A stretch of DNA of 59,820 bases from Clostridia bacterium (GCA_045655245.1 JAZOOX010000045.1:1-59820); one strand, 5' to 3'; positions 18,735-59,787 are shown, counted from the first letter of the stretch. Translations and numbers: made by a program. The notes: generated by a model from the sequence alone, not told the origin.

Positions 18735-19080
18735 GGGGGCGTAATTGGTTTCGACAGGGATCATGAAGCATGAAAAGCGGGTAGTTGCGTTGGACAACTT
18801 TAAAACCGACACCTTAAATTAGACGCTAACAAAAACTTAGCTGTAGCTGCGTAATGCGGCTTGCACCTCCGCGTGGTAACCGCTCCGGCGGAAAGTGCAT
18901 CATCTAAGCGGTGAACGTGCGTGCGCAAAGCTTTGAGCGCACCATGAACAATGAAGCTACTGATACGACTCGTTTGTTTGTGTATGGGTCTTTGATGGAA
19001 TTCTAAAACACATTCTGCACCCGGAGAAGTTTGTGTGAATTGGTTTTTGGACAGGGGTTCAACTCCCCTCGCCTCCACCA
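18735..19080 (+). ncRNA. ssrA: tmRNA (SsrA)
   Basis: The 5' GGGGGCG pairs with the 3' CGCCUCC-A-CCA and includes a G3:U pair. A tRNA-like T-arm GGGGTTCAACTCCCC is present. The internal tag frame GAC GCT AAC AAA AAC TTA GCT GTA GCT GCG TAA (18822..18854) ends in LAVAA-stop. The gene starts directly after the smpB stop codon. Confidence 0.93.
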
Positions 19081-21364: not shown

Positions 21365-21392
21365 TTGACATATTTTCGATTTGTGATATAAT
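21365..21392 (+). promoter_or_regulatory. SigmaA-type promoter of the T-box leader
   Basis: TTGACA (21365..21370), a 16 nt spacer, then the extended -10 TGaTATAAT (21384..21392). Confidence 0.65.
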
Positions 21393-21403
21393 TATGTAGG
21401 AAT

Positions 21404-21668
21404 TAAAGGCTGTGACGAAGAGGGCGCGTCTATCGAATCTTCAGAGAAATGGCGGTTGGTGCAAGCCATAGAGGAGATTTTCGTGTTTGTAGTTTCTGAG
21501 CCGAAAGGAAGAAAGCCGTCAGGTGAGTAGAACCTTTCCGTGATTGCTGCGTTAATGCATACGGGTTGTTAGGCCCTGAGAGTGGCGATTTTATCGCAAT
21601 TTGAGTGGTACCGCGGGTGTGCAAACGCTCGTCTCAAAGTAAATGGCTTTGGGGCGAGTTTTTTTTCG
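21404..21668 (+). promoter_or_regulatory. T-box riboswitch leader with a probable Val (GUA) specifier
   Basis: Stem I has a GA/K-turn (GGCUGUGACGAAG ... UUUCUGAGCC), an AG bulge AGAGA (21443..21447) and a distal loop GGUGCAA (21458..21464). The T-box sequence AAUUUGAGUGGUACCGCG is at 21598..21615, with the UGGU bulge at 21606..21609. A terminator (CUCGUCUC / GGGGCGAG plus U8, 21628..21666) follows. The triplet in the specifier position is GUA (21489..21491), followed by a purine. Confidence 0.9.
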
Positions 21669-21689
21669 CCCTTGAACGGAGGAAAGAAT

Positions 21690-23981
21690 ATGGAAAATTT
21701 TAAGGATGTTGGCCTGAAAATCAAAGAGATGGCGTGGCGTATCCGGGAACTGCGCGAAATTGAAGGATATTCCCCCGAAGAAATGGCACAAAAGACCGGT
21801 GTAACTGCAGAAGAATACCTGCGTTGTGAAAACGGAAAAAGCGATCTGAATTTTGCGTTTATTTACCGTTGTGCATCTGCTTTGCGTGTCAACGTAACAG
21901 ATATTATCGAGGGTTATAGCCCGAAACTGAAATCCTATACCGTAACCCGTTCCGGGGCGGGTCAGGAAATCGCAAAAGCACACGGCATGACCTATCACAA
22001 CCTGGCGTTTGCATTCAAAAATCGTATTGCCGAGCCGTTGTTCGTTCATAGCGTTTATGACGAAGCGGCACAGACCCGTGATATCGAATTAACGACCCAT
22101 GAAGGGCAAGAATGCGATATTGTCATTGACGGACATCTGATGGTTCAGATTGGTGCGCACAAGGAAGTGTTGGGGCCCGGAGACAGCATTTACTATAATA
22201 GCGACACGCCTCACGGTATGATTGCCGTAAACGGTGCAGACTGTCATTTTTACGCCATTGTTTTGCGCTCCAATGTAGAAACCGAATCTGCCGTCGGTAG
22301 CGAAATCATCCCTGAAAAGATTATCGGCACAGTTTTGCGGGATACAAAAGAACGTATCTATCACGAATTTATCGATATCGTTGAAGACGAGGACGGCACT
22401 CCGACTTCGATTACTTTCAAAAACGAAGATCGTTTTAATTTTGCATTTGATTTAGTGGACAAACTGTCCGAACGTGAACCGAAGAAACTGGCAATGTTAC
22501 ACGTTGCGAAAGATAAGACTGTTCGGCGGTTTACCTTTACCGATATGAAGAAGATGTCCAACCAGTGTGCAAACTATTTTGCATCGTTAGGCATTAAAAA
22601 AGGCGATCGGGTTATGCTGGTACTGAAGAGACATTACCAATTCTGGATCGCAATGCTCGGTCTGAACAAGTTGGGTGCGATTGCCATTCCTGCGGTTGAT
22701 CAGTTGCAAGAACACGATTTTGAATATCGTTTCAACGCAGCTGGAGTCAGCACCATCATTTGTACTTCGGATGGTGAAGCATCGAAACAGGTTGATATTG
22801 CGGCCGAAAAAGCACCTTCTTTGGTAAATAAAATCATGGTCGGTGATACCCGTGAGGGATGGCGCAATTTTGATGAAGAATTTAAACGTTTCAGCACTCA
22901 TTTTGCGCGGACGGAGGAATCCCCCTGCGGCGACGATACCATGCTGATGTATTTCACTTCCGGCACTTCGGGTTATCCCAAAATTGCGGCACATAACTAC
23001 AAGTACCCCTTGGGACATTTCCATACTGCTAAGTATTGGCATAATGTTGACCCTGACGGCTTGCATTTTACCATATCCGACACCGGCTGGGCAAAGGCGA
23101 TGTGGGGGAAACTGTACGGTCAATGGCTGTGCGAAGCCGCGACTTTTGTATACGATTTCGATCGTTTTGATGCTGCAGATATTTTGCCGATGTTTGCAGA
23201 ACATCACATTACCACGTTCTGTGCACCGCCCACCATGCTTCGTATGATGATTAAACAGGATATTTCAAAATACGACTTTTCTTCTGTCCGTCATATGACC
23301 ACGGCAGGGGAGGCTTTAAATCCCGAAGTTTACCGCCAGTTTGAAAAGGCAACCGGCCTTCAAATTAAGGAGGGGTTTGGTCAGACCGAGAGCACAATGA
23401 TCATCGGTAATCTGGTTGGGAAGCCGCATAAAATCGGCGCAATGGGCAAGCCTGCCCCGATTTACGATGTTGCATTGATGGATGGCGACGGAAACCTAAT
23501 CACCAATAACGAAGCGGGAGAAATCGTTATCAATGTTAAAAACGGTGCTCCCTGCGGCCTGTTTACGGGTTATTATAACGCCGAAGAAAAGACTAAGGAA
23601 GTTTGGCACGATGGCTATTACCATACCGGTGATGTTGCTTGGCGAGACGAGGACGGTTTCTACTGGTACGAAGGCAGAATTGATGATGTAATCAAATCGT
23701 CAGGCTACCGCATCGGACCTTTTGAAATCGAAAGCGTCATTATGGAACTGCCCTATGTTTTGGAATGCGGTGTTTCCGCAGTACCCGACGAGGTTCGTGG
23801 ACAAATTGTTAAGGCAAGTATTGTTTTGGTTGCAGGTACTGAACCCACAGAGGAACTGAAAAAAGAAATTCAGACCTATGTAAAAGATCGTACCGCACCC
23901 TATAAATATCCCAGAATTGTCGTATTCCGTGACAGCCTGCCCAAGACGGTTAGCGGAAAGATTCAAAGAAATAAACTGTAA
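21690..23981 (+). CDS. Fusion protein: XRE-type HTH plus cupin domain joined to a medium-chain acyl-CoA synthetase (ANL superfamily)
   Basis: The ATG at 21690 follows RBS ggaggaaag. The listed start at 21582 lies inside the T-box leader. The N-terminus has an HTH (YSPEEMAQKTGVTAEEYLRCENGKSD) and a cupin (GQECDIVIDGHLMVQIG...GDSIYYNSDTPHGM). The C-terminus has AMP-binding motifs YFTSGTSGYPK, GFGQTE, YHTGD, GRIDDVIKSSGYRIGPFEIE and SGKIQR. Confidence 0.9.
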   Translation: MENFKDVGLKIKEMAWRIRELREIEGYSPEEMAQKTGVTAEEYLRCENGKSDLNFAFIYRCASALRVNVTDIIEGYSPKLKSYTVTRSGAGQEIAKAHGMTYHNLAFAFKNRIAEPLFVHSVYDEAAQTRDIELTTHEGQECDIVIDGHLMVQIGAHKEVLGPGDSIYYNSDTPHGMIAVNGADCHFYAIVLRSNVETESAVGSEIIPEKIIGTVLRDTKERIYHEFIDIVEDEDGTPTSITFKNEDRFNFAFDLVDKLSEREPKKLAMLHVAKDKTVRRFTFTDMKKMSNQCANYFASLGIKKGDRVMLVLKRHYQFWIAMLGLNKLGAIAIPAVDQLQEHDFEYRFNAAGVSTIICTSDGEASKQVDIAAEKAPSLVNKIMVGDTREGWRNFDEEFKRFSTHFARTEESPCGDDTMLMYFTSGTSGYPKIAAHNYKYPLGHFHTAKYWHNVDPDGLHFTISDTGWAKAMWGKLYGQWLCEAATFVYDFDRFDAADILPMFAEHHITTFCAPPTMLRMMIKQDISKYDFSSVRHMTTAGEALNPEVYRQFEKATGLQIKEGFGQTESTMIIGNLVGKPHKIGAMGKPAPIYDVALMDGDGNLITNNEAGEIVINVKNGAPCGLFTGYYNAEEKTKEVWHDGYYHTGDVAWRDEDGFYWYEGRIDDVIKSSGYRIGPFEIESVIMELPYVLECGVSAVPDEVRGQIVKASIVLVAGTEPTEELKKEIQTYVKDRTAPYKYPRIVVFRDSLPKTVSGKIQRNKL

Positions 23982-23983
23982 AA

Positions 23984-25324
23984 TTGGAGGTGGTCGTTAC
24001 GAACCTTCCGTCCTATGTGAACGAAATACTTCGACGCCTGGAAGATGCCGGGTTTGAAGCATATGTTGTCGGCGGATGTGTACGCGACCACCTCTTATCA
24101 CTTATGCCGACCGATTACGACATAACCACTTCAGCAACGCCGCAAGAAATTAAATCGGTGTTTTCGGACACTAAAACAGTCGACATCGGCATTGCCCACG
24201 GAACAGTAGGGCTTTGCCTCGAAGACACCGTGGTTGAAGTGACAACCTTCCGAATCGATGGGGAGTACTGTGACTCCAGACATCCAACCGAAGTTTCTTT
24301 CACTGCCTCTTTAGAAGAAGACCTTAAGCGCCGCGACTTTACCATTAATGCGATGGCGTATTCGCCGCGACATGGTCTTGTGGATCTCTTCGGCGGTGCG
24401 ACTGACCTAGAAAACAAAATCATCCGTTGCGTTGGGAATCCCCAAAAACGTTTTCAAGAAGACGCGCTCCGTATAATGCGAGCATTACGTTTCGCTTCAA
24501 CGCTTAATTTCAGCATTGATAAAGACACGATGAATGCCGCGTTTTTGCTTCGTGACGGGCTTTTGCAAGTTTCATCTGAAAGAATTACGGTTGAACTCTT
24601 AAAAATGCTCTGTGGCGCAAATATCAAGCGGATTTTATTGGATGCAACTGCGGTTTTAGCCGTTATAATCCCCGAACTTCTCGAGATAAAAAACTTTGAC
24701 CAAAGGAATCCCCATCATATTTTCGACGTACTGGAGCATACCGCTGTAGCACTTGAAAACGTCGAAGCGACTCCTGAATTGCGTTTGGCGGTTTTGCTTC
24801 ATGATATGGGAAAACCCCGCACTTTCAGTTTGGACGAAAAGGGGGTTGGTCATTTCTATGGACATGCCGTTGTCAGTGTTGTGCTGAGCAAGAAGATAAT
24901 GGGCCGCTTACGCTTAGACAACGTGACCGTGGAACGCGTACTTCAGTTAGTAAAGTGGCACGACCACTGGATTGAGCCTGATAAAAGGGCCATTAAACGA
25001 GTATTAAATCATTTAACTCCGGAAGGGCTTAATGCGCTGTTAAAAGTAAAACGCGCCGATAATCTCGCTCAACACCCCGATCATCGGGACCGACTTTCGG
25101 TATACGAAAGAATACAAAAAATTTCCGGGGAAATAGTTGCTGAAAACGAATGCTTTTCACTAAAAAATCTTGCTGTCAACGGCAAGGACTTAATCGAACT
25201 CGGTGTGACGCCCGGTCCGCGTTTGGGCGAGTTACTGGACATTTTATTGAATGAAGTGATTGAAGAACGAACGGCAAATGAGAAGGACGCCTTGCTGGCC
25301 TTGGCAAAACGCATAAAACAATAA
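23984..25324 (+). CDS. cca: CCA-adding tRNA nucleotidyltransferase with an HD domain
   Basis: GGCVRD, DYDITT, RRDFTINAM and the HD motif LLHDMGKP. The exact start (TTG 23984 or GTG 23990) is uncertain. Confidence 0.88.
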   Translation: MEVVVTNLPSYVNEILRRLEDAGFEAYVVGGCVRDHLLSLMPTDYDITTSATPQEIKSVFSDTKTVDIGIAHGTVGLCLEDTVVEVTTFRIDGEYCDSRHPTEVSFTASLEEDLKRRDFTINAMAYSPRHGLVDLFGGATDLENKIIRCVGNPQKRFQEDALRIMRALRFASTLNFSIDKDTMNAAFLLRDGLLQVSSERITVELLKMLCGANIKRILLDATAVLAVIIPELLEIKNFDQRNPHHIFDVLEHTAVALENVEATPELRLAVLLHDMGKPRTFSLDEKGVGHFYGHAVVSVVLSKKIMGRLRLDNVTVERVLQLVKWHDHWIEPDKRAIKRVLNHLTPEGLNALLKVKRADNLAQHPDHRDRLSVYERIQKISGEIVAENECFSLKNLAVNGKDLIELGVTPGPRLGELLDILLNEVIEERTANEKDALLALAKRIKQ

Positions 25325-46139: not shown

Positions 46140-46214
46140 GTCTCCATAGTTCAAGGGATAGAATAGGATCCTCCTAAGATCTAGATGTAGGTTCGAGTCC
46201 TACTGGGGACGCCA
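46140..46214 (+). tRNA. tRNA-Arg (anticodon CCT)
   Basis: Cloverleaf by hand. Acceptor GTCTCCA/TGGGGAC, anticodon stem GGATC/GATCT, loop CTCCTAA, T-arm GTAGG-TTCGAGT-CCTAC, encoded CCA. Confidence 0.88.
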
Positions 46215-46246
46215 AAACCCGCACGTTATGTGCGGGTTTCTTTATC
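46215..46246 (+). terminator. Terminator after tRNA-Arg
   Basis: cccgcac-gttat-gtgcggg hairpin followed by TTTCTTT. Confidence 0.75.
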
Positions 46247-46375
46247 TAAAACCTGTATATCCAGAAAGCTGTATGATAAAATTGCCGTCAAAATAATTGT
46301 TAAAAATTTGATACGCCTTTTATTGCAAGGAAGAGCATATAATTTATAGTGCCGTAATTTTTGAAAGCAACATAA

Positions 46376-47134
46376 ATGACCGCTTTGGTATTGCAGAAAA
46401 AGGGGAGATCAAACATAAGACCGATTACAAAAACCAAACTTATTGCCCACCGTGGATTAAGTGGCTTTGAATGTGAAAATACTGCCGCCGCCTTTATCGC
46501 CGCAGGAAATCAAGATTATTTTGGTATCGAGACCGATCTGCGCCAAACCGCCGATGGAAAATTCGTGCTTCTTCACGATCATCAAACAGAGCGAATCGCC
46601 AATACAAACTTGGTGGTTGCCGACACCACCATTGCCGAACTGCAAGATTTGCGTTTAAAAGACTTGCCGCGTATGACGGGAGAGACCCATACCCATCTGC
46701 GTATTCCGTCTTTGGAAGAATACTTGTCAATTTGTAAGTATTATCGTAAAACCGCTGTTCTTGAAATTAAAATTCGGTTGACCCATACGCTGGCGCAAGA
46801 AATATTAAACATCGTTAAAGAAACGGGTATGGACAAAAATATCATCATTATCGACTTCACTTTTGACAATTTGGTGTTGCTTCGAAAACTCGCTCCCGAT
46901 ATGCCCATGCAATACCTGACAGGGGAGTACACCGATTCACTTATCAGCCGCCTCTCAGAGTACTGTTTGGATTTGGATATCTATTATCCCGCATTAGATC
47001 AAGAAATTGCTTCCAAGCTAAAAGAAAGCGGCATTTTGATTAATGTATGGACGGTGGATGACTTGGCAACCGCTAAAAAGTTTGCCGAATGGGGTGTTGA
47101 CTTCATTACCACAAACCGCATTTTATCACTCTGA
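46376..47134 (+). CDS. Glycerophosphodiester phosphodiesterase
   Basis: GDPD motifs IAHRGLSG, ENT and GIETDLRQTADGKFVLLHD. The RBS before the ATG at 46376 is weak, so the exact start is uncertain. Confidence 0.82.
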   Translation: MTALVLQKKGRSNIRPITKTKLIAHRGLSGFECENTAAAFIAAGNQDYFGIETDLRQTADGKFVLLHDHQTERIANTNLVVADTTIAELQDLRLKDLPRMTGETHTHLRIPSLEEYLSICKYYRKTAVLEIKIRLTHTLAQEILNIVKETGMDKNIIIIDFTFDNLVLLRKLAPDMPMQYLTGEYTDSLISRLSEYCLDLDIYYPALDQEIASKLKESGILINVWTVDDLATAKKFAEWGVDFITTNRILSL

Positions 47135-47186
47135 TCGTCGCCAAAAAACTTTCGCAAAAAAAGTTTAATAAAAATCAAAAAAAGTG

Positions 47187-47215
47187 TTGACAAATGCCAA
47201 TTCTTTTCGTATAAT
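47187..47215 (+). promoter_or_regulatory. SigmaA-type promoter of the tRNA Asp-Thr-Lys cluster
   Basis: TTGACA (47187..47192), a 17 nt spacer, then TATAAT (47210..47215). Confidence 0.7.
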
Positions 47216-47260
47216 AAGTGATGTCGCCGAAAGATTCCATGACAGGACGGGCGTCAATGT

Positions 47261-47337
47261 GGCCCGGTAGTTCAGTTGGTTAGAACGCTAGCCTGTCACG
47301 CTAGAGGTCGAGAGTTCGAGTCTCTTCCGGGTCGCCA
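47261..47337 (+). tRNA. tRNA-Asp (anticodon GTC)
   Basis: Cloverleaf by hand. Anticodon loop CCTGTCACG, T-loop GTTCGAGTC, encoded CCA. Identical to the copy at 59430..59506. Confidence 0.92.
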
Positions 47338-47340
47338 TTT

Positions 47341-47416
<76 letters not shown>

Positions 47417-47419
47417 TAT

Positions 47420-47495
47420 GCACCATTAGCTCAGTTGGTAGAGCACCTGACTCTTAATCAGGGTGTCCACGGTTCGAGCCCGTGATGGTGTACCA
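47420..47495 (+). tRNA. tRNA-Lys (anticodon CTT)
   Basis: Acceptor GCACCAT/ATGGTGT, anticodon loop CTCTTAA, T-loop GGTTCGAGCC, encoded CCA. Confidence 0.92.
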
Positions 47496-54454: not shown

Positions 54455-54666
54455 AAAAAATCCGGTTTCTAAAGCGCAGAAACCGGTTTGCTACTACAAT
54501 ACCGATAGCGCTCCATCCAACTTGGATGACAAGCGTACAGTTATTCGCTGCACACCCAGATAAGAAACGCTGACTCGGTTCCCTCTTCGGCATCCGCCCC
54601 TTTTTTCACGGTTCACAGATTAGTCAGAACCTCGCCGCGAATACTTTTGGCACAATGCACCTCTAT
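54455..54666 (-). promoter_or_regulatory. Lysine riboswitch (L-box) with a terminator, leader of asd-dapA-dapB
   Basis: The minus-strand transcript reads AUAGAGGUGC...AAAGUA...GUGAAAAAAGGGGCGGAUGCCGAAG...GUCA...CUGGG...UGUCAUC...GGAUGGAGCGCUAUC. This matches the conserved L-box helix junction segments. The terminator CCGGUUUCU/AGAAACCGG plus U6 follows (plus-strand 54455..54488). Confidence 0.88.
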
Positions 54667-54674
54667 CTATGTAT

Positions 54675-59350: not shown

Positions 59351-59426
59351 GGGCGCATAGCTCAGCTGGGAGAGCATCTGCCTTACAAGCAGAGGGTCAT
59401 AGGTTCGAGCCCTATTGTGCCCACCA
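59351..59426 (+). tRNA. tRNA-Val (anticodon TAC)
   Basis: Acceptor GGGCGCA/TGTGCCC, anticodon stem TCTGC/GCAGA, loop CTTACAA, discriminator A, encoded CCA. Confidence 0.92.
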
Positions 59427-59429
59427 CAC

Positions 59430-59506
59430 GGCCCGGTAGTTCAGTTGGTTAGAACGCTAGCCTGTCACGCTAGAGGTCGAGAGTTCGAGTCTCTTCCGGG
59501 TCGCCA
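59430..59506 (+). tRNA. tRNA-Asp (anticodon GTC), second identical copy
   Basis: Sequence identical to 47261..47337. Confidence 0.92.
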
Positions 59507-59510
59507 ATAT

Positions 59511-59586
59511 GCCTCTGTAGCTCAGTCGGTAGAGCAGGGGACTGAAAATCCCCGTGTCGGTGGTTCGATTCCGCCCGGAGGCACCA
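59511..59586 (+). tRNA. tRNA-Phe (anticodon GAA)
   Basis: Anticodon stem GGGGA/TCCCC, loop CTGAAAA, T-loop GGTTCGATTCC, encoded CCA. Confidence 0.92.
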
Positions 59587-59601
59587 CTATTAAGTTTTTA
59601 T

Positions 59602-59676
59602 GCGGGAGTGGCTCAGTGGTAGAGCGTCACCTTGCCAAGGTGAACGTCGCGAGTTCGAATCTCGTCTTCCGCTCCA
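59602..59676 (+). tRNA. tRNA-Gly (anticodon GCC)
   Basis: Anticodon stem TCACC/GGTGA, loop TTGCCAA, T-loop GTTCGAATC, encoded CCA. Confidence 0.92.
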
Positions 59677-59713
59677 AACAAAAGGCGTATATATATTACG
59701 CCTTTTCATATAT

Positions 59714-59787
59714 GGCGCCATAGCCAAGTGGTAAGGCAGAGGTCTGCAACACCTTTATCCCCAGTTCAAATCTGGGTGGCGCCTCCA
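59714..59787 (+). tRNA. tRNA-Cys (anticodon GCA)
   Basis: Acceptor GGCGCCA/TGGCGCC, anticodon stem GAGGT/ACCTT, loop CTGCAAC, discriminator T, encoded CCA. A hairpin aaaaggcgta/tacgcctttt at 59682..59707 precedes it. Confidence 0.9.

What the first reader, a model, noticed from the sequence alone, without database searches (positions are those of the whole stretch)
21690..23981. A single ORF fuses an XRE-HTH plus cupin sensor-like module to an ANL-family acyl-CoA synthetase
- **Seen:** the reading frame is uninterrupted from 21690 to 23981.
  - Residues 1 to about 60 form an XRE-type helix-turn-helix (SPEEMAQKTGVTAEEYLRCENGKSD).
  - Residues of about 110 to 195 form a cupin barrel (GQECDIVIDGHLMVQIG...GDSIYYNSDTPHGM).
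  - The remaining ~530 residues carry all the AMP-forming ligase core motifs.
- **Established knowledge:** HTH-cupin proteins are normally free-standing small-molecule-responsive transcription regulators.
- **Inference:** covalent fusion to an enzyme suggests one of three things.
  - A trigger-enzyme-like protein that both catalyses and regulates.
  - Ligand-gated control of the ligase by the cupin domain.
  - DNA tethering of the enzyme.
- **Context:** together with the T-box leader, this gene would carry two stacked sensory layers. I cannot tell from sequence alone how widespread the architecture is.
Basis: partly seen in the sequence, partly recalled or inferred. Interest (0 to 1): 0.65.

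Follow-up and report, generated by a model that had tools for sequence, protein, structure and literature searches.

The report
Valine-controlled branched-acid ligase with HTH-cupin head
This is a real gene, common in gut Clostridia, that fuses a regulator-like HTH-cupin module to a branched short-chain acyl-CoA ligase switched on by valine starvation; it most likely salvages isobutyrate into valine, while the job of the HTH-cupin module is still unknown and is probably not ordinary DNA binding.

Summary
One uninterrupted 763-aa ORF (21690..23981) carries XRE-HTH, Cupin_2, AMP-binding and AMP-binding_C domains, behind a T-box leader. It is not an assembly error: at least 596 species-level genomes of gut and rumen Clostridia encode it, and 79 of the 80 fetched loci do so as one full-length frame.

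Comparison assigns a function. The T-box specifier is an invariant GUA (Val). Many genomes hold a tandem paralog behind an AUC (Ile) T-box. In 40 of 58 loci the pair is followed by a ferredoxin, VorB-type 2-oxoacid:ferredoxin oxidoreductase subunits and, in 37, IlvE. The ligase half is closest to MacsMa (PDB 3ETC), which prefers 2-methylbutyrate. The gene is therefore most likely an isobutyrate-CoA ligase induced by valine starvation, feeding reductive carboxylation to valine.

The regulator reading is weak. The HTH is acidic and no conserved operator flanks the promoter. The module's fold matches HTH-cupin enzymes such as HppE as well as it matches a putative regulator, and it keeps a His-x3-Glu...His metal-site pattern. 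The module is under purifying selection, so it does something, but its role is unresolved. No publication on this fusion was found. I rate it a new variant of a known kind, of moderate interest.

The parts
21365..21392 (+). Sigma-70 promoter: TTGACA, 16-nt spacer with a TG extension, TATAAT.
   Evidence: 12 of 12 consensus matches. The -35 and extended -10 boxes are the only conserved upstream elements across 71 Val-type leaders apart from the coding end of the upstream paralog.
21403..21669 (+). T-box leader, valine-specific. Specifier GUA at 21489-21491 followed by a purine at 21492. T-box core UGGUACCGCG at 21606-21615. Terminator hairpin at 21627-21659 followed by a T-run at 21660-21666.
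   Evidence: Rfam RF00230 scores 81.6 bits with E = 2.7e-18. Terminator found. GUA occupies the specifier position in 73 of 74 aligned leaders, and all 74 carry UGGU. The cognate tRNA-Val(UAC) with discriminator A is encoded in the same window.
21678..21682 (+). Ribosome-binding site GGAGG, 7 nt before the ATG.
   Evidence: Read directly from the sequence.
21690..23981 (+). CDS of the 763-aa HTH-cupin-acyl-CoA ligase fusion.
   Evidence: ORF; domains; 79 of 80 orthologous loci are uninterrupted.
21726..21920 (+). XRE-type five-helix domain, residues 13-77. Acidic, with an atypical recognition helix (TAEEYLRCENG).
   Evidence: Pfam HTH_3 and HTH_31. Modelled helices 2-74 with pLDDT about 90. 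Net charge -3. pN/pS 0.21.
21963..22265 (+). Cupin beta-barrel, residues about 92-192, with invariant T135-x-H137-x3-E141-x6-G148 ... P174-H175.
   Evidence: Pfam Cupin_2 residues 131-190. Modelled strands 92-192 with pLDDT above 90. Invariant columns in alignments A1-A3. pN/pS 0.11.
22266..22355 (+). Low-confidence, poorly conserved interdomain linker, residues about 193-222.
   Evidence: pLDDT below 50 in both models. The interdomain stretch 196-255 shows the lowest column conservation (0.67) and the highest pN/pS (0.27).
22356..23978 (+). ANL (AMP-forming) acyl-CoA ligase body, residues 223-763. MacsMa-like acyl pocket: W450 in AKYWHNV, and G564 in GFGQTE.
   Evidence: Pfam AMP-binding and AMP-binding_C. 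605 bits, E = 1e-180 to PDB 3etc. 3etc is the top Foldseek hit. NCBIfam best hit is MbcS at 430 bits.
23984..25324 (+). CCA-adding enzyme gene directly downstream, possibly co-transcribed. This arrangement is not conserved in other genomes.
   Evidence: Pfam PolyA_pol, tRNA_NucTran2_2 and HD. It starts 3 nt after the ligase stop codon with no terminator between. It is absent near the fused gene in all 79 other loci.
59351..59426 (+). tRNA-Val(UAC), the predicted effector of the T-box.
   Evidence: ARAGORN. The 3' end reads ...GUGCCC-A-CCA, so the discriminator is A.

Best explanation
The gene encodes a catalytically competent, MacsMa/MbcS-like branched short-chain acyl-CoA ligase whose transcription is gated by a valine-specific T-box.

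Proposed mechanism:
1. When tRNA-Val(UAC) is uncharged, it pairs with the GUA specifier and with UGGU in the T-box core. This stabilises the antiterminator, so the ligase is transcribed.
2. The enzyme most likely activates isobutyrate to isobutyryl-CoA.
3. A VorB-type 2-oxoacid:ferredoxin oxidoreductase reductively carboxylates isobutyryl-CoA to 2-oxoisovalerate.
4. IlvE transaminates 2-oxoisovalerate to valine. This is the classical 'isoacid' salvage route of rumen and gut anaerobes.

A tandem paralog behind an Ile (AUC) T-box would do the same with 2-methylbutyrate for isoleucine.

The N-terminal HTH-cupin module is an obligatory, selectively maintained part of the enzyme. I infer that it is not a classical DNA-binding repressor. 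Instead I read it as an HppE-like helical-plus-metal-cupin module that binds a small ligand, mediates oligomerisation, or both, and so modulates the ligase. An example would be feedback by the amino acid or the 2-oxoacid.

Shown: the architecture, the T-box and its specifier, the operon context in relatives, and the closest enzyme relatives.
Inferred: the substrate, the direction of the pathway, and the role of the N-terminal module.
For: T-box. Rfam hit, promoter and terminator. GUA is invariant in 73 of 74 leaders while the flanking bases vary, and UGGU is present in 74 of 74. tRNA-Val(UAC) with A73 is encoded in the same window.

Paralogs. The upstream paralog (about 65% identical) carries its own T-box with AUC in 44 of 46 loci. 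The same Ile-then-Val pair occurs in a distant lineage, L081, where the specifier loops read AUC-A and GUC-G.

Operon context.
- The L016 cluster runs: ligase A, ligase B, P-loop protein, 2x[4Fe-4S] ferredoxin, VorB alpha (543 bits, cut-off 399), TPP beta subunit, gamma subunit, IlvE (475 bits, cut-off 307).
- The five genes from the P-loop protein to the gamma subunit follow the ligase in 40 of 58 loci with at least 4.5 kb of downstream sequence. IlvE is also present in 37 of those.

Enzyme.
- The ligase half scores 605 bits to 3ETC/MacsMa. MacsMa's preferred substrate is 2-methylbutyrate (PMC10455477).
- The MacsMa pocket Trp is conserved, and the Gly that replaces the Acs pocket Trp is conserved too.
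- Val-type and Ile-type paralogs differ at A468G and M471L in GW[A/G]KA[M/L]WGK. The Ile-type matches MacsMa's Gly; the Val-type has the bulkier Ala.

N-terminal module.
- pN/pS is 0.21 for the HTH and 0.11 for the cupin, against about 0.08-0.12 for the ligase.
- The only apparent split form examined at sequence level (L090) is an in-frame nonsense codon.
- The HTH is acidic, and no conserved operator was found.
- Foldseek places HppE, Psf4, HEPD and MPnS level with 1y9q.
- HppE is a homotetramer of an alpha domain plus a cupin, with ligands His138, Glu142 and His180 (PMC9088020, PMC7916636). Here H137-x3-E141...H175 is invariant.
Against: No biochemical data exist for any member of the family. 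The substrate is inferred from the T-box specifier, the gene context in relatives and homology.

In the window itself, and in its closest relatives L001-L015, the Vor/IlvE cluster is not adjacent. Whether this genome has the cluster elsewhere is unknown.

The ligase scores below the NCBIfam equivalog cut-off for MbcS (430 against 850).

The T-box scores below Rfam's gathering score, and its specifier loop does not match the model's GAA consensus.

The case against DNA binding is indirect, resting on charge, recognition-helix composition and the absence of a detectable operator at the gene's own promoter. A target elsewhere in the genome was not tested and cannot be excluded.

The full-length AlphaFold model is too poor (pLDDT 68.6, pTM 0.57, disordered linkers) to show whether the cupin contacts the ligase.

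The Foldseek TM-scores for the module are low (0.34-0.48) because the relative domain orientations differ.
Confidence: 0.6

Rival explanations
1. Trigger enzyme (BirA-like). The HTH binds DNA, and the ligase or cupin reports substrate or acyl-AMP availability. The protein would then both catalyse and repress or activate genes, for example the de novo ilv genes or transporters.
For: HTH_3 and HTH_31 score above their Pfam cut-offs. The HTH is under purifying selection (pN/pS 0.21). One divergent fused clade (P0124) has lost the P-loop and the A10 lysine but keeps the whole architecture, as expected if the ligase body can serve as a sensor. From general knowledge, BirA, NadR and PutA are precedents for enzyme-repressor fusions.
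Against: The HTH carries net negative charge, -3 here and -5.4 on average, against +3 and +4 in the comparators. Acidic residues open the recognition helix. No conserved palindrome or motif other than the -35 and -10 boxes lies upstream of 71 Val-type leaders. No HTH helix 2-3 position discriminates the two paralogs. Enzymes with the same two-domain fold exist that do not bind DNA.
Confidence: 0.2
2. The cupin is a second catalytic domain: a metal-dependent activity acting on the branched acid, its CoA ester or the 2-oxoacid. The protein would then be a bifunctional enzyme.
For: An invariant 2-His-1-Glu pattern (H137, E141, H175) matches the cupin metal motif. The closest folds include the metalloenzymes HppE, Psf4, HEPD and MPnS. 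Constraint on the cupin is as strong as on the ligase.
Against: The route from acid to acyl-CoA to 2-oxoacid to amino acid needs no extra chemical step. The hosts are gut and rumen Clostridia, presumably strict anaerobes, so the O2- or H2O2-dependent chemistry of the structural relatives is unlikely there. No paralog-specific position falls in the barrel core, residues 126-195.
Confidence: 0.1
3. The ligase serves membrane branched-chain fatty acid synthesis, as MbcS does in Staphylococcus aureus, or general short-chain acid assimilation, rather than amino-acid synthesis.
For: The best NCBIfam hit is MbcS. MbcS activates isobutyrate and 2-methylbutyrate for branched-chain fatty acid synthesis (PMC10026030 and PMC13584741). 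In the window the gene is not next to vor or ilvE.
Against: Control by aminoacyl-tRNA status, through Val and Ile T-boxes, points to amino-acid supply. In 37-40 of 58 loci the gene is followed on the same strand by the VorB-type oxidoreductase genes and IlvE, with 0-20 nt between the ligase and the first downstream gene. The MbcS equivalog cut-off is not reached (430 against 850).
Confidence: 0.08
4. Assembly or annotation artefact: two genes, a regulator and a ligase, were merged by a missed stop codon or frameshift.
For: A few database entries are short HTH-cupin proteins followed by a ligase ORF (L089, L090).
Against: 79 of 80 independent genomes encode one uninterrupted frame. More than 120 clusters at 90% identity have the full architecture. 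The one 'split' examined at sequence level, L090, is an in-frame TAA inside a cupin strand, that is, a nonsense mutation or sequencing error. The linker is under purifying selection as coding sequence (pN/pS 0.27).
Confidence: 0.01

Closest known systems
MacsMa, the medium-chain acyl-CoA synthetase of Methanosarcina acetivorans (PDB 3ETC)
   Same: The ligase half aligns end to end (605 bits, E = 1e-180), and 3ETC is the top Foldseek hit. Both share the pocket Trp in AKYW, GFGQTE with Gly in place of the Acs pocket Trp, YHTGD, and the A10 lysine. MacsMa prefers branched 2-methylbutyrate (PMC10455477).
   Different: MacsMa has no HTH-cupin module and is archaeal, and as far as I know it has no T-box (T-boxes are bacterial). 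At position 468 the window protein has Ala (GWAK) where MacsMa and the Ile-type paralogs have Gly.
MbcS, the methylbutyryl-CoA synthetase of Staphylococcus aureus (NCBIfam NF047394)
   Same: It is the best NCBIfam family (430 bits, residues 256-763). It activates isobutyrate and 2-methylbutyrate (PMC10026030, PMC13584741).
   Different: The score is far below the equivalog cut-off of 850. MbcS is unfused and feeds fatty-acid synthesis. Here the context is T-box, Vor and IlvE, which points to amino-acid synthesis.
Free-standing XRE-HTH plus Cupin_2 regulators (for example PDB 1y9q from Vibrio cholerae, and PuuR-type repressors)
   Same: Same two-domain order and fold. 1y9q is the best sequence match (E = 0.0025) and the best fold match (E = 1e-14).
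   Different: Those proteins are about 180-200 aa, stand alone, and have basic HTH domains (+3 for 1y9q over the aligned segment). Here the module is acidic, is covalently fused to an enzyme, and keeps H-x3-E...H, which is not seen in 1y9q at the aligned positions.
HppE, Psf4, HEPD and MPnS: enzymes that join an N-terminal domain to a metal cupin
   Same: Foldseek E = 3e-14 to 1e-9, level with 1y9q. HppE has a helical alpha domain plus a cupin, forms a homotetramer, and binds metal through His138, Glu142 and His180. That is the same H-x3-E...H pattern as H137, E141 and H175 here.
   Different: Sequence identity is only 13-21%. Those enzymes carry out O2- or H2O2-dependent phosphonate chemistry. 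No such chemistry is expected in this pathway, and no ligase is fused to them.
BirA-type enzyme-repressors (an HTH fused to an adenylate-forming ligase)
   Same: Conceptually similar: an N-terminal HTH precedes an adenylate-forming enzyme, so an acyl-AMP-dependent regulatory switch is conceivable. This comparison rests on my own knowledge.
   Different: The folds are unrelated (a winged helix plus a class II aaRS-like biotin ligase). BirA has a defined operator, whereas none was found here.
T-box riboswitches (Rfam RF00230)
   Same: Stem I with a specifier loop, an AGAGA and GGUUGGUG distal region, the T-box core UGGUACCGCG, and a mutually exclusive terminator.
   Different: All five leaders of this family that were scanned score below the gathering cut-off (66-82 bits against 93). 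In the Val leaders, the three bases aligned to the model's GAA before the codon are usually UUU (52 of 74). The regulated gene class, an acyl-CoA ligase and vor operon, is not among the classes listed in the 2008 T-box regulon survey that I checked (PMC2494555).

Membership tests
ANL superfamily, AMP-forming acyl-CoA synthetase | AMP-binding and AMP-binding_C domains above the curated cut-offs. | tested here: met
   201 bits (cut-off 29.9) and 74 bits (cut-off 24.5).
ANL superfamily, AMP-forming acyl-CoA synthetase | Core motifs A3 (TSGTxGxPK), A5 (GxTE), A7 (YxTGD), A8 (GRxDD) and A10 (PKTxSGK) are intact. | tested here: met
   YFTSGTSGYPK, GFGQTE, YHTGD, GRIDD and PKTVSGKIQR are all present, and almost all of their residues are invariant or nearly invariant in the 40-sequence alignment.
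ANL superfamily, AMP-forming acyl-CoA synthetase | Catalytic activity (acyl-AMP and thioester formation). | not testable with these tools
   Needs an enzyme assay.
MacsMa-like branched short/medium-chain acyl-CoA synthetases | Gly at the Acs pocket-Trp position, plus the alternative pocket Trp (MacsMa Trp259). | tested here: met
   The alignment to 3etc shows identical GFGQTE and a conserved AKYW. The definition of these features comes from PMC10455477.
MbcS (NCBIfam NF047394 equivalog) | Score at or above the equivalog cut-off of 850 bits. | tested here: not met
   429.6 bits. The protein is a relative, not an equivalog.
Acetate-CoA ligase (the name JGI gives some members) | Score at or above the NCBIfam cut-off, and Trp in the acyl pocket. 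| tested here: not met
   PRK04319 scores 384 against 729, and TIGR02188 scores 254 against 725. The pocket Trp is replaced by Gly.
T-box leader (RF00230) | Rfam gathering score of 93 bits. | tested here: not met
   81.6 bits. The hit is nevertheless full-length (model positions 1-219) with E = 2.7e-18 in the local scan.
T-box leader (RF00230) | A specifier codon in the Stem I loop, a UGGN core matching the tRNA discriminator, and a terminator/antiterminator pair. | tested here: met
   GUA plus a purine is invariant in 73 of 74 leaders, and UGGU is present in 74 of 74. Terminator. tRNA-Val(UAC) with A73 is present in the window.
T-box leader (RF00230) | tRNA-dependent antitermination. | not testable with these tools
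   Needs in vitro transcription with uncharged tRNA-Val.
XRE-family HTH-cupin transcription regulators | HTH_3 and Cupin_2 domains in that order. | tested here: met
   Pfam. Fold model with pLDDT 81.5. 1y9q is the top hit.
XRE-family HTH-cupin transcription regulators | Sequence-specific DNA binding, with an operator near regulated promoters. | tested here: inconclusive
   No conserved operator at the gene's own promoters. The HTH is acidic with an atypical recognition helix. Targets elsewhere in the genome were not testable.
Metal-binding cupins (2-His-1-carboxylate type, as in HppE) | Conserved His-x3-Glu in motif 1 and His in motif 2. | tested here: met
   H137, E141 and H175 are invariant in A1, A2 and A3. 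The HppE ligands are given in PMC7916636.
Metal-binding cupins (2-His-1-carboxylate type, as in HppE) | Bound metal and ligand. | not testable with these tools
   Needs ICP-MS or a structure.
Branched-chain acid to amino acid reductive-carboxylation operon (ligase, VOR, IlvE) | Co-location with genes for a 2-oxoisovalerate:ferredoxin oxidoreductase and a branched-chain aminotransferase. | tested here: inconclusive
   Met in 37-40 of 58 related loci. Not met in the window or in its 11 closest relatives that have enough flanking sequence. The rest of this genome is unseen.

The most novel reading that the evidence does not exclude
The protein is a self-contained sensor-enzyme. The metal-cupin would bind the pathway's end product or 2-oxoacid (valine or 2-oxoisovalerate; isoleucine or 2-oxo-3-methylvalerate in the paralog), and through the helical domain would gate or oligomerise the ligase. 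That would add a fast post-translational feedback layer on top of the slower T-box layer. Alternatively it is a BirA-like switch, in which isobutyryl-AMP formed in the ligase drives DNA binding by the HTH. In either case, an XRE-cupin 'regulator' module has been recruited as the allosteric domain of a metabolic enzyme. The dead-motif clade (P0124) would show the reverse path, from enzyme to pure sensor.
Probability: 0.25. Interest if true: 0.75.

Novelty: new variant of a known kind. Interest (0 to 1): 0.55.

Why it matters
Many rumen and gut Clostridia are long known to need, or benefit from, 'isoacids' (isobutyrate, 2-methylbutyrate, isovalerate), which they carboxylate into branched-chain amino acids. 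That background rests on my own knowledge; PMC7356843 mentions the leucine route from isovalerate.

This family supplies a concrete, testable genetic module for that physiology: paralogous ligases, each wired to the tRNA of the amino acid it would supply, in front of VOR and IlvE. It is present in at least 596 species-level genomes of gut and rumen Clostridia.

The T-box specifier offers a free, built-in substrate label for otherwise unannotated 'AMP-binding proteins'. These leaders fall below Rfam's gathering score, so standard annotation misses them.

The obligatory HTH-cupin head is an uncharacterised addition to an ANL enzyme. Finding out whether it binds DNA, a metal or a metabolite would show how a regulator-type module can be reused on an enzyme.

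Tried and rejected
1. **Default Rfam scan.** The gathering-threshold scan of the window found no T-box. Only the permissive local scan did.
2. **Neighbours in the window.** VanW-like, AAA-like kinase, CCA-adding enzyme and aspartokinase genes are not conserved next to the fused gene in any of 79 related loci, so they say nothing about its function.
3. **Operator search.** k-mer enrichment (k = 6-8, both strands, against shuffles) and visual alignment of 140 nt upstream of 71 Val-type leaders gave only the -35 and -10 boxes and the coding end of the upstream paralog. My pattern caught only 5 Ile-type leaders, so the Ile set is underpowered.
4. **Full-length AlphaFold2 model.** With a 40-sequence alignment at 63-90% identity it reached pLDDT 68.6 and pTM 0.57, with the linkers below 50. 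The interdomain packing is unusable, and no PAE is returned.
5. **Homolog search with the N-terminal 250 aa.** This was meant to find free-standing relatives. It returned almost only contig-end fragments of the same fused family.
6. **Apparent stand-alone or split HTH-cupin genes.** L090 is an in-frame nonsense codon. L089 is a similar broken copy at a contig end. L088 is a truncated remnant beside recR. I rejected these as evidence for a natural two-gene form.
7. **Public reads.** None are served for this sequence, so there is no read-level or RNA evidence.
8. **A Leu-type third paralog.** Single CTC and GGC matches from my pattern have non-canonical flanks and are probably mis-hits. I make no claim from them.
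9. **Literature.** Seven searches combined T-box, isobutyrate, valine, reductive carboxylation, ferredoxin oxidoreductase, cupin, helix-turn-helix and acyl-CoA synthetase. They found no paper on this fusion or on a T-box-controlled ligase and vor operon. The library is incomplete, so this is not proof of absence.


Full report
**1. The observation**

The frame from the ATG at 21690 to the TAA at 23979-23981 is open and gives 763 aa. A GGAGG lies 7 nt before the ATG. Pfam places the following domains, all above their curated cut-offs:
- HTH_3/HTH_31 at residues 13-71
- Cupin_2 at residues 131-190
- AMP-binding at residues 261-629
- AMP-binding_C at residues 679-757

The ligase core motifs are intact: YFTSGTSGYPK, GFGQTE, YHTGD, GRIDD and PKTVSGKIQR.

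The T-box it mentions is also there, but only the permissive scan finds it. RF00230 matches 21403-21639 at 81.6 bits, below the gathering score of 93, with E = 2.7e-18. The default scan misses it. A perfect TTGACA-16-TATAAT promoter lies at 21365-21392, and a 14-bp terminator with a T-run lies at 21627-21666.

**2. Not an artefact, and how widespread it is**

- A search of 5.8 billion proteins returned more than 120 clusters at 81-100% identity, all with the same four domains. Where named, they are called 'AMP-binding protein', 'cupin domain-containing protein' or 'acetyl-CoA synthetase'.
The best 80 are all gut or rumen Clostridia MAGs: Acutalibacteraceae, Oscillospiraceae, Ruminococcus, Christensenellaceae.
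- In 79 of the 80, the whole protein is a single uninterrupted match.
- An exhaustive HMMER search of 1.84 billion representatives at 50% identity shows only three full-length fused clusters (P0121 at 64%, P0122 at 61%, P0124 at 43%), plus fragments. Unfused ligases follow from 56% identity downward.

The family is therefore abundant but compact. Short 'HTH-cupin only' entries are contig-end fragments or broken copies. The one inspected at sequence level, L090, has an in-frame TAA inside a cupin strand. No reads are served for this sequence.

**3. What the T-box reads**

The T-box core TGGTACCGCG lies upstream of the gene in 78 of 79 loci. In an alignment of the leaders, the 3' side of the specifier loop ends in an invariant GTA plus a purine (G in 64, A in 10), directly before the lower-stem strand CTTC. 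The bases before it vary. GTA occupies that position in 73 of 74 leaders, and all 74 carry UGGU. In the window the codon is at 21489-21491.

GUA is a valine codon. UGGU requires an A discriminator. The window itself encodes tRNA-Val(UAC) at 59351-59426, ending ...GUGCCC-A-CCA.

The alternative reading UGU (Cys) is rejected for two reasons. The first U is not invariant (L020 has GGUAG). From my own knowledge, tRNA-Cys has a U discriminator.

**4. Context in related genomes**

None of the window's neighbours travels with the gene. From L016 onward, however, most loci share a same-strand cluster:

| Order | Element |
|---|---|
| 1 | T-box, then a fused ligase paralog A (about 65% identical to the window protein) |
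| 2 | About 350 nt containing the Val T-box |
| 3 | The window's ortholog (paralog B) |
| 4 | A 220-aa CbiA/ParA-like P-loop protein, 0-20 nt downstream |
| 5 | A 71-aa 2x[4Fe-4S] ferredoxin |
| 6 | VorB-type alpha subunit (NCBIfam 543 bits, cut-off 399) |
| 7 | TPP-binding beta subunit |
| 8 | Gamma subunit |
| 9 | IlvE (475 bits, cut-off 307) |

Of 58 loci with at least 4.5 kb of downstream sequence, 40 have the P-loop protein, the ferredoxin and the three oxidoreductase subunits, and 37 of those also have IlvE. Eighteen have none of these, including all the closest relatives of the window protein.

Paralog A has its own T-box, whose specifier is AUC (Ile) in 44 of 46 loci. Rfam confirms both leaders in L016 (79 and 78 bits). 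It also confirms both in the more distant L081, where the specifier loops read AUC-A and GUC-G before two tandem fused genes, one of which is P0121.

**5. The enzyme**

The ligase half matches PDB 3ETC at 605 bits (E = 1e-180), and 3ETC is the top Foldseek hit. 3ETC is MacsMa, whose preferred substrate is branched 2-methylbutyrate. Its pocket is shaped by Trp259 and by a Gly replacing the acetyl-CoA synthetase pocket Trp (PMC10455477). Both features are conserved here, in AKYW and GFGQTE.

The best NCBIfam model is MbcS, the S. aureus ligase for isobutyrate and 2-methylbutyrate. The score of 430 is far below the equivalog cut-off of 850. The acetate-CoA ligase models also fail.

Seven ligase positions are fixed differently in the 79 Val-type and 47 Ile-type proteins. 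Two of them lie in DTGW[A/G]KA[M/L]WGK: the Ile-type shares Gly with MacsMa, and the Val-type has the larger Ala. This fits a one-carbon-smaller substrate, although I have not mapped these residues onto the structure.

**6. Best explanation for the ligase**

Valine starvation leaves tRNA-Val uncharged, the T-box reads through, and the ligase is made. The ligase then activates isobutyrate. VOR reductively carboxylates isobutyryl-CoA to 2-oxoisovalerate, and IlvE makes valine. The paralog does the same for isoleucine from 2-methylbutyrate.

The T-box logic argues for the biosynthetic direction, because the gene is induced when the amino acid is short.

- Shown: the leader, its specifier, the paralog and specifier pairing, the operon in relatives, and the homology.
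- Inferred: the substrate, the direction, and that this genome has VOR and IlvE elsewhere.

**7. The N-terminal module**

The module is maintained by selection. pN/pS is 0.21 for the HTH and 0.11 for the cupin, against 0.08-0.12 for the ligase. The stretch between cupin and ligase, which contains the linker, is the least constrained at 0.27.

Its role as a DNA-binding regulator is doubtful, for four reasons:

1. Over the segments aligned to 434 repressor and to 1y9q, the window's HTH has net charge -3, against +4 and +3. Across orthologs, residues 7-77 average -5.4, with a range of -8 to -2.
2. The recognition helix begins [S/T]-x-[E/D]-E-Y, with E42 invariant. The 434 repressor has Q-Q-S at the corresponding positions.
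3. Upstream of 71 Val-type leaders, nothing is conserved beyond the promoter boxes.
4. A good model of residues 1-225 (pLDDT 81.5) matches 1y9q, an uncharacterised 'HTH_3 regulator', at E = 1e-14. It matches the enzymes HppE (E = 3e-14), Psf4, HEPD/PhpD and MPnS essentially equally well.

HppE is a homotetramer whose monomers combine an all-helical domain with a cupin (PMC9088020). It binds iron through His138, Glu142 and His180 (PMC7916636). The fused family has an invariant T135-x-H137-x3-E141-x6-G148 ... P174-H175, even in the clade at 43% identity. This is cupin motif 1 with three of the four usual metal ligands retained.

Paralog-specific positions in the module cluster at residues 97-117, the first cupin strands. 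None lies in the barrel core or in HTH helices 2-3. This pattern is compatible with paralog-specific ligand recognition, or with interfaces that keep the two paralogs from mixing.

I therefore favour a non-DNA-binding, metal- or ligand-binding and possibly oligomerising module that modulates the ligase. This is inference, and the trigger-enzyme rival keeps about 0.2.

The full-length model is too poor to show the packing (pLDDT 68.6).

**8. Comparison and novelty**

The ligase is a member of the ANL superfamily and is MacsMa-like. It is not an MbcS equivalog and not an acetate-CoA ligase. The leader has every T-box feature but falls below Rfam's gathering score, as do all five leaders of this family that I scanned. 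The HTH-cupin head belongs by fold to the XRE-cupin group, which contains both regulators and enzymes.

I found no publication describing the fusion, or a T-box-controlled ligase and vor operon. The library is incomplete. The architecture is visible in databases but only under generic names.

I classify it as a new variant of a known kind. Interest is moderate: 0.55 overall, and 0.75 if the cupin proves to be an allosteric end-product sensor or the protein a BirA-like switch, to which I give a probability of about 0.25.

Noticed in passing
window 23984-25324 (+): A CCA-adding enzyme gene (PolyA_pol, tRNA_NucTran2_2 and HD domains) starts 3 nt after the ligase stop codon, with no terminator between them. 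In this genome a tRNA-maturation enzyme may therefore be co-transcribed under the Val T-box. The arrangement is not seen in any of 79 related loci.
   Followed up: partly
P0124, in L084 4493-6769: A divergent fused clade (43% identity) has lost the ligase P-loop (FLQSYSYGMAK), the A10 lysine (PKDANGVVIR) and part of A5, but keeps the full length and the cupin H-x3-E...H pattern. It lies 73 nt behind another fused gene and in front of a class I/II aminotransferase, with no T-box. It may be a pseudo-enzyme or a pure sensor.
   Followed up: partly
L016 8299-8961, and 40 of 58 related loci: A conserved 220-aa CbiA/ParA/NUBPL-like P-loop protein always sits between the ligase and the ferredoxin and VOR genes. 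It matches no NCBIfam family. It could be an Fe-S or cofactor maturation factor for the oxidoreductase.
   Followed up: no
L016 12728-12817: A third T-box leader begins right after ilvE and is cut off by the end of the locus (38 bits, model positions 1-93). The cluster may therefore continue with another amino-acid-controlled gene.
   Followed up: no
L081 667-3150 (-) and 3255-4685 (-): Next to a tandem Ile/Val fused pair lie a different ligase fusion (AP_endonuc_2 TIM-barrel plus AMP-binding, 827 aa) and a LeuA-like HMGL gene, both divergently oriented.
   Followed up: no
window 21403-21639, L016 and L081 leaders: All five T-box leaders of this family that were scanned score 66-82 bits, below Rfam's gathering score of 93. 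In the Val leaders, the three bases aligned to the model's GAA before the codon are usually UUU (52 of 74). Standard annotation would miss these leaders.
   Followed up: partly
L090 963-3257: One MAG carries the gene with a single in-frame TAA inside the last cupin strands (MIAVNG*DCKFYAIVL). Gene callers report it as a 182-aa 'regulator' plus a 574-aa ligase. It is either a pseudogene or a sequencing error.
   Followed up: yes
window 18735-19080 (+); 54498-54673 (-); 46140-47495 and 59351-59787 (+): Other RNA features in the window: a tmRNA (tag ANKNLAVAA), a lysine riboswitch on the minus strand, and two tRNA clusters. The mutS/mutL/miaA-like layout upstream suggests an ordinary chromosomal region.
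   Followed up: no
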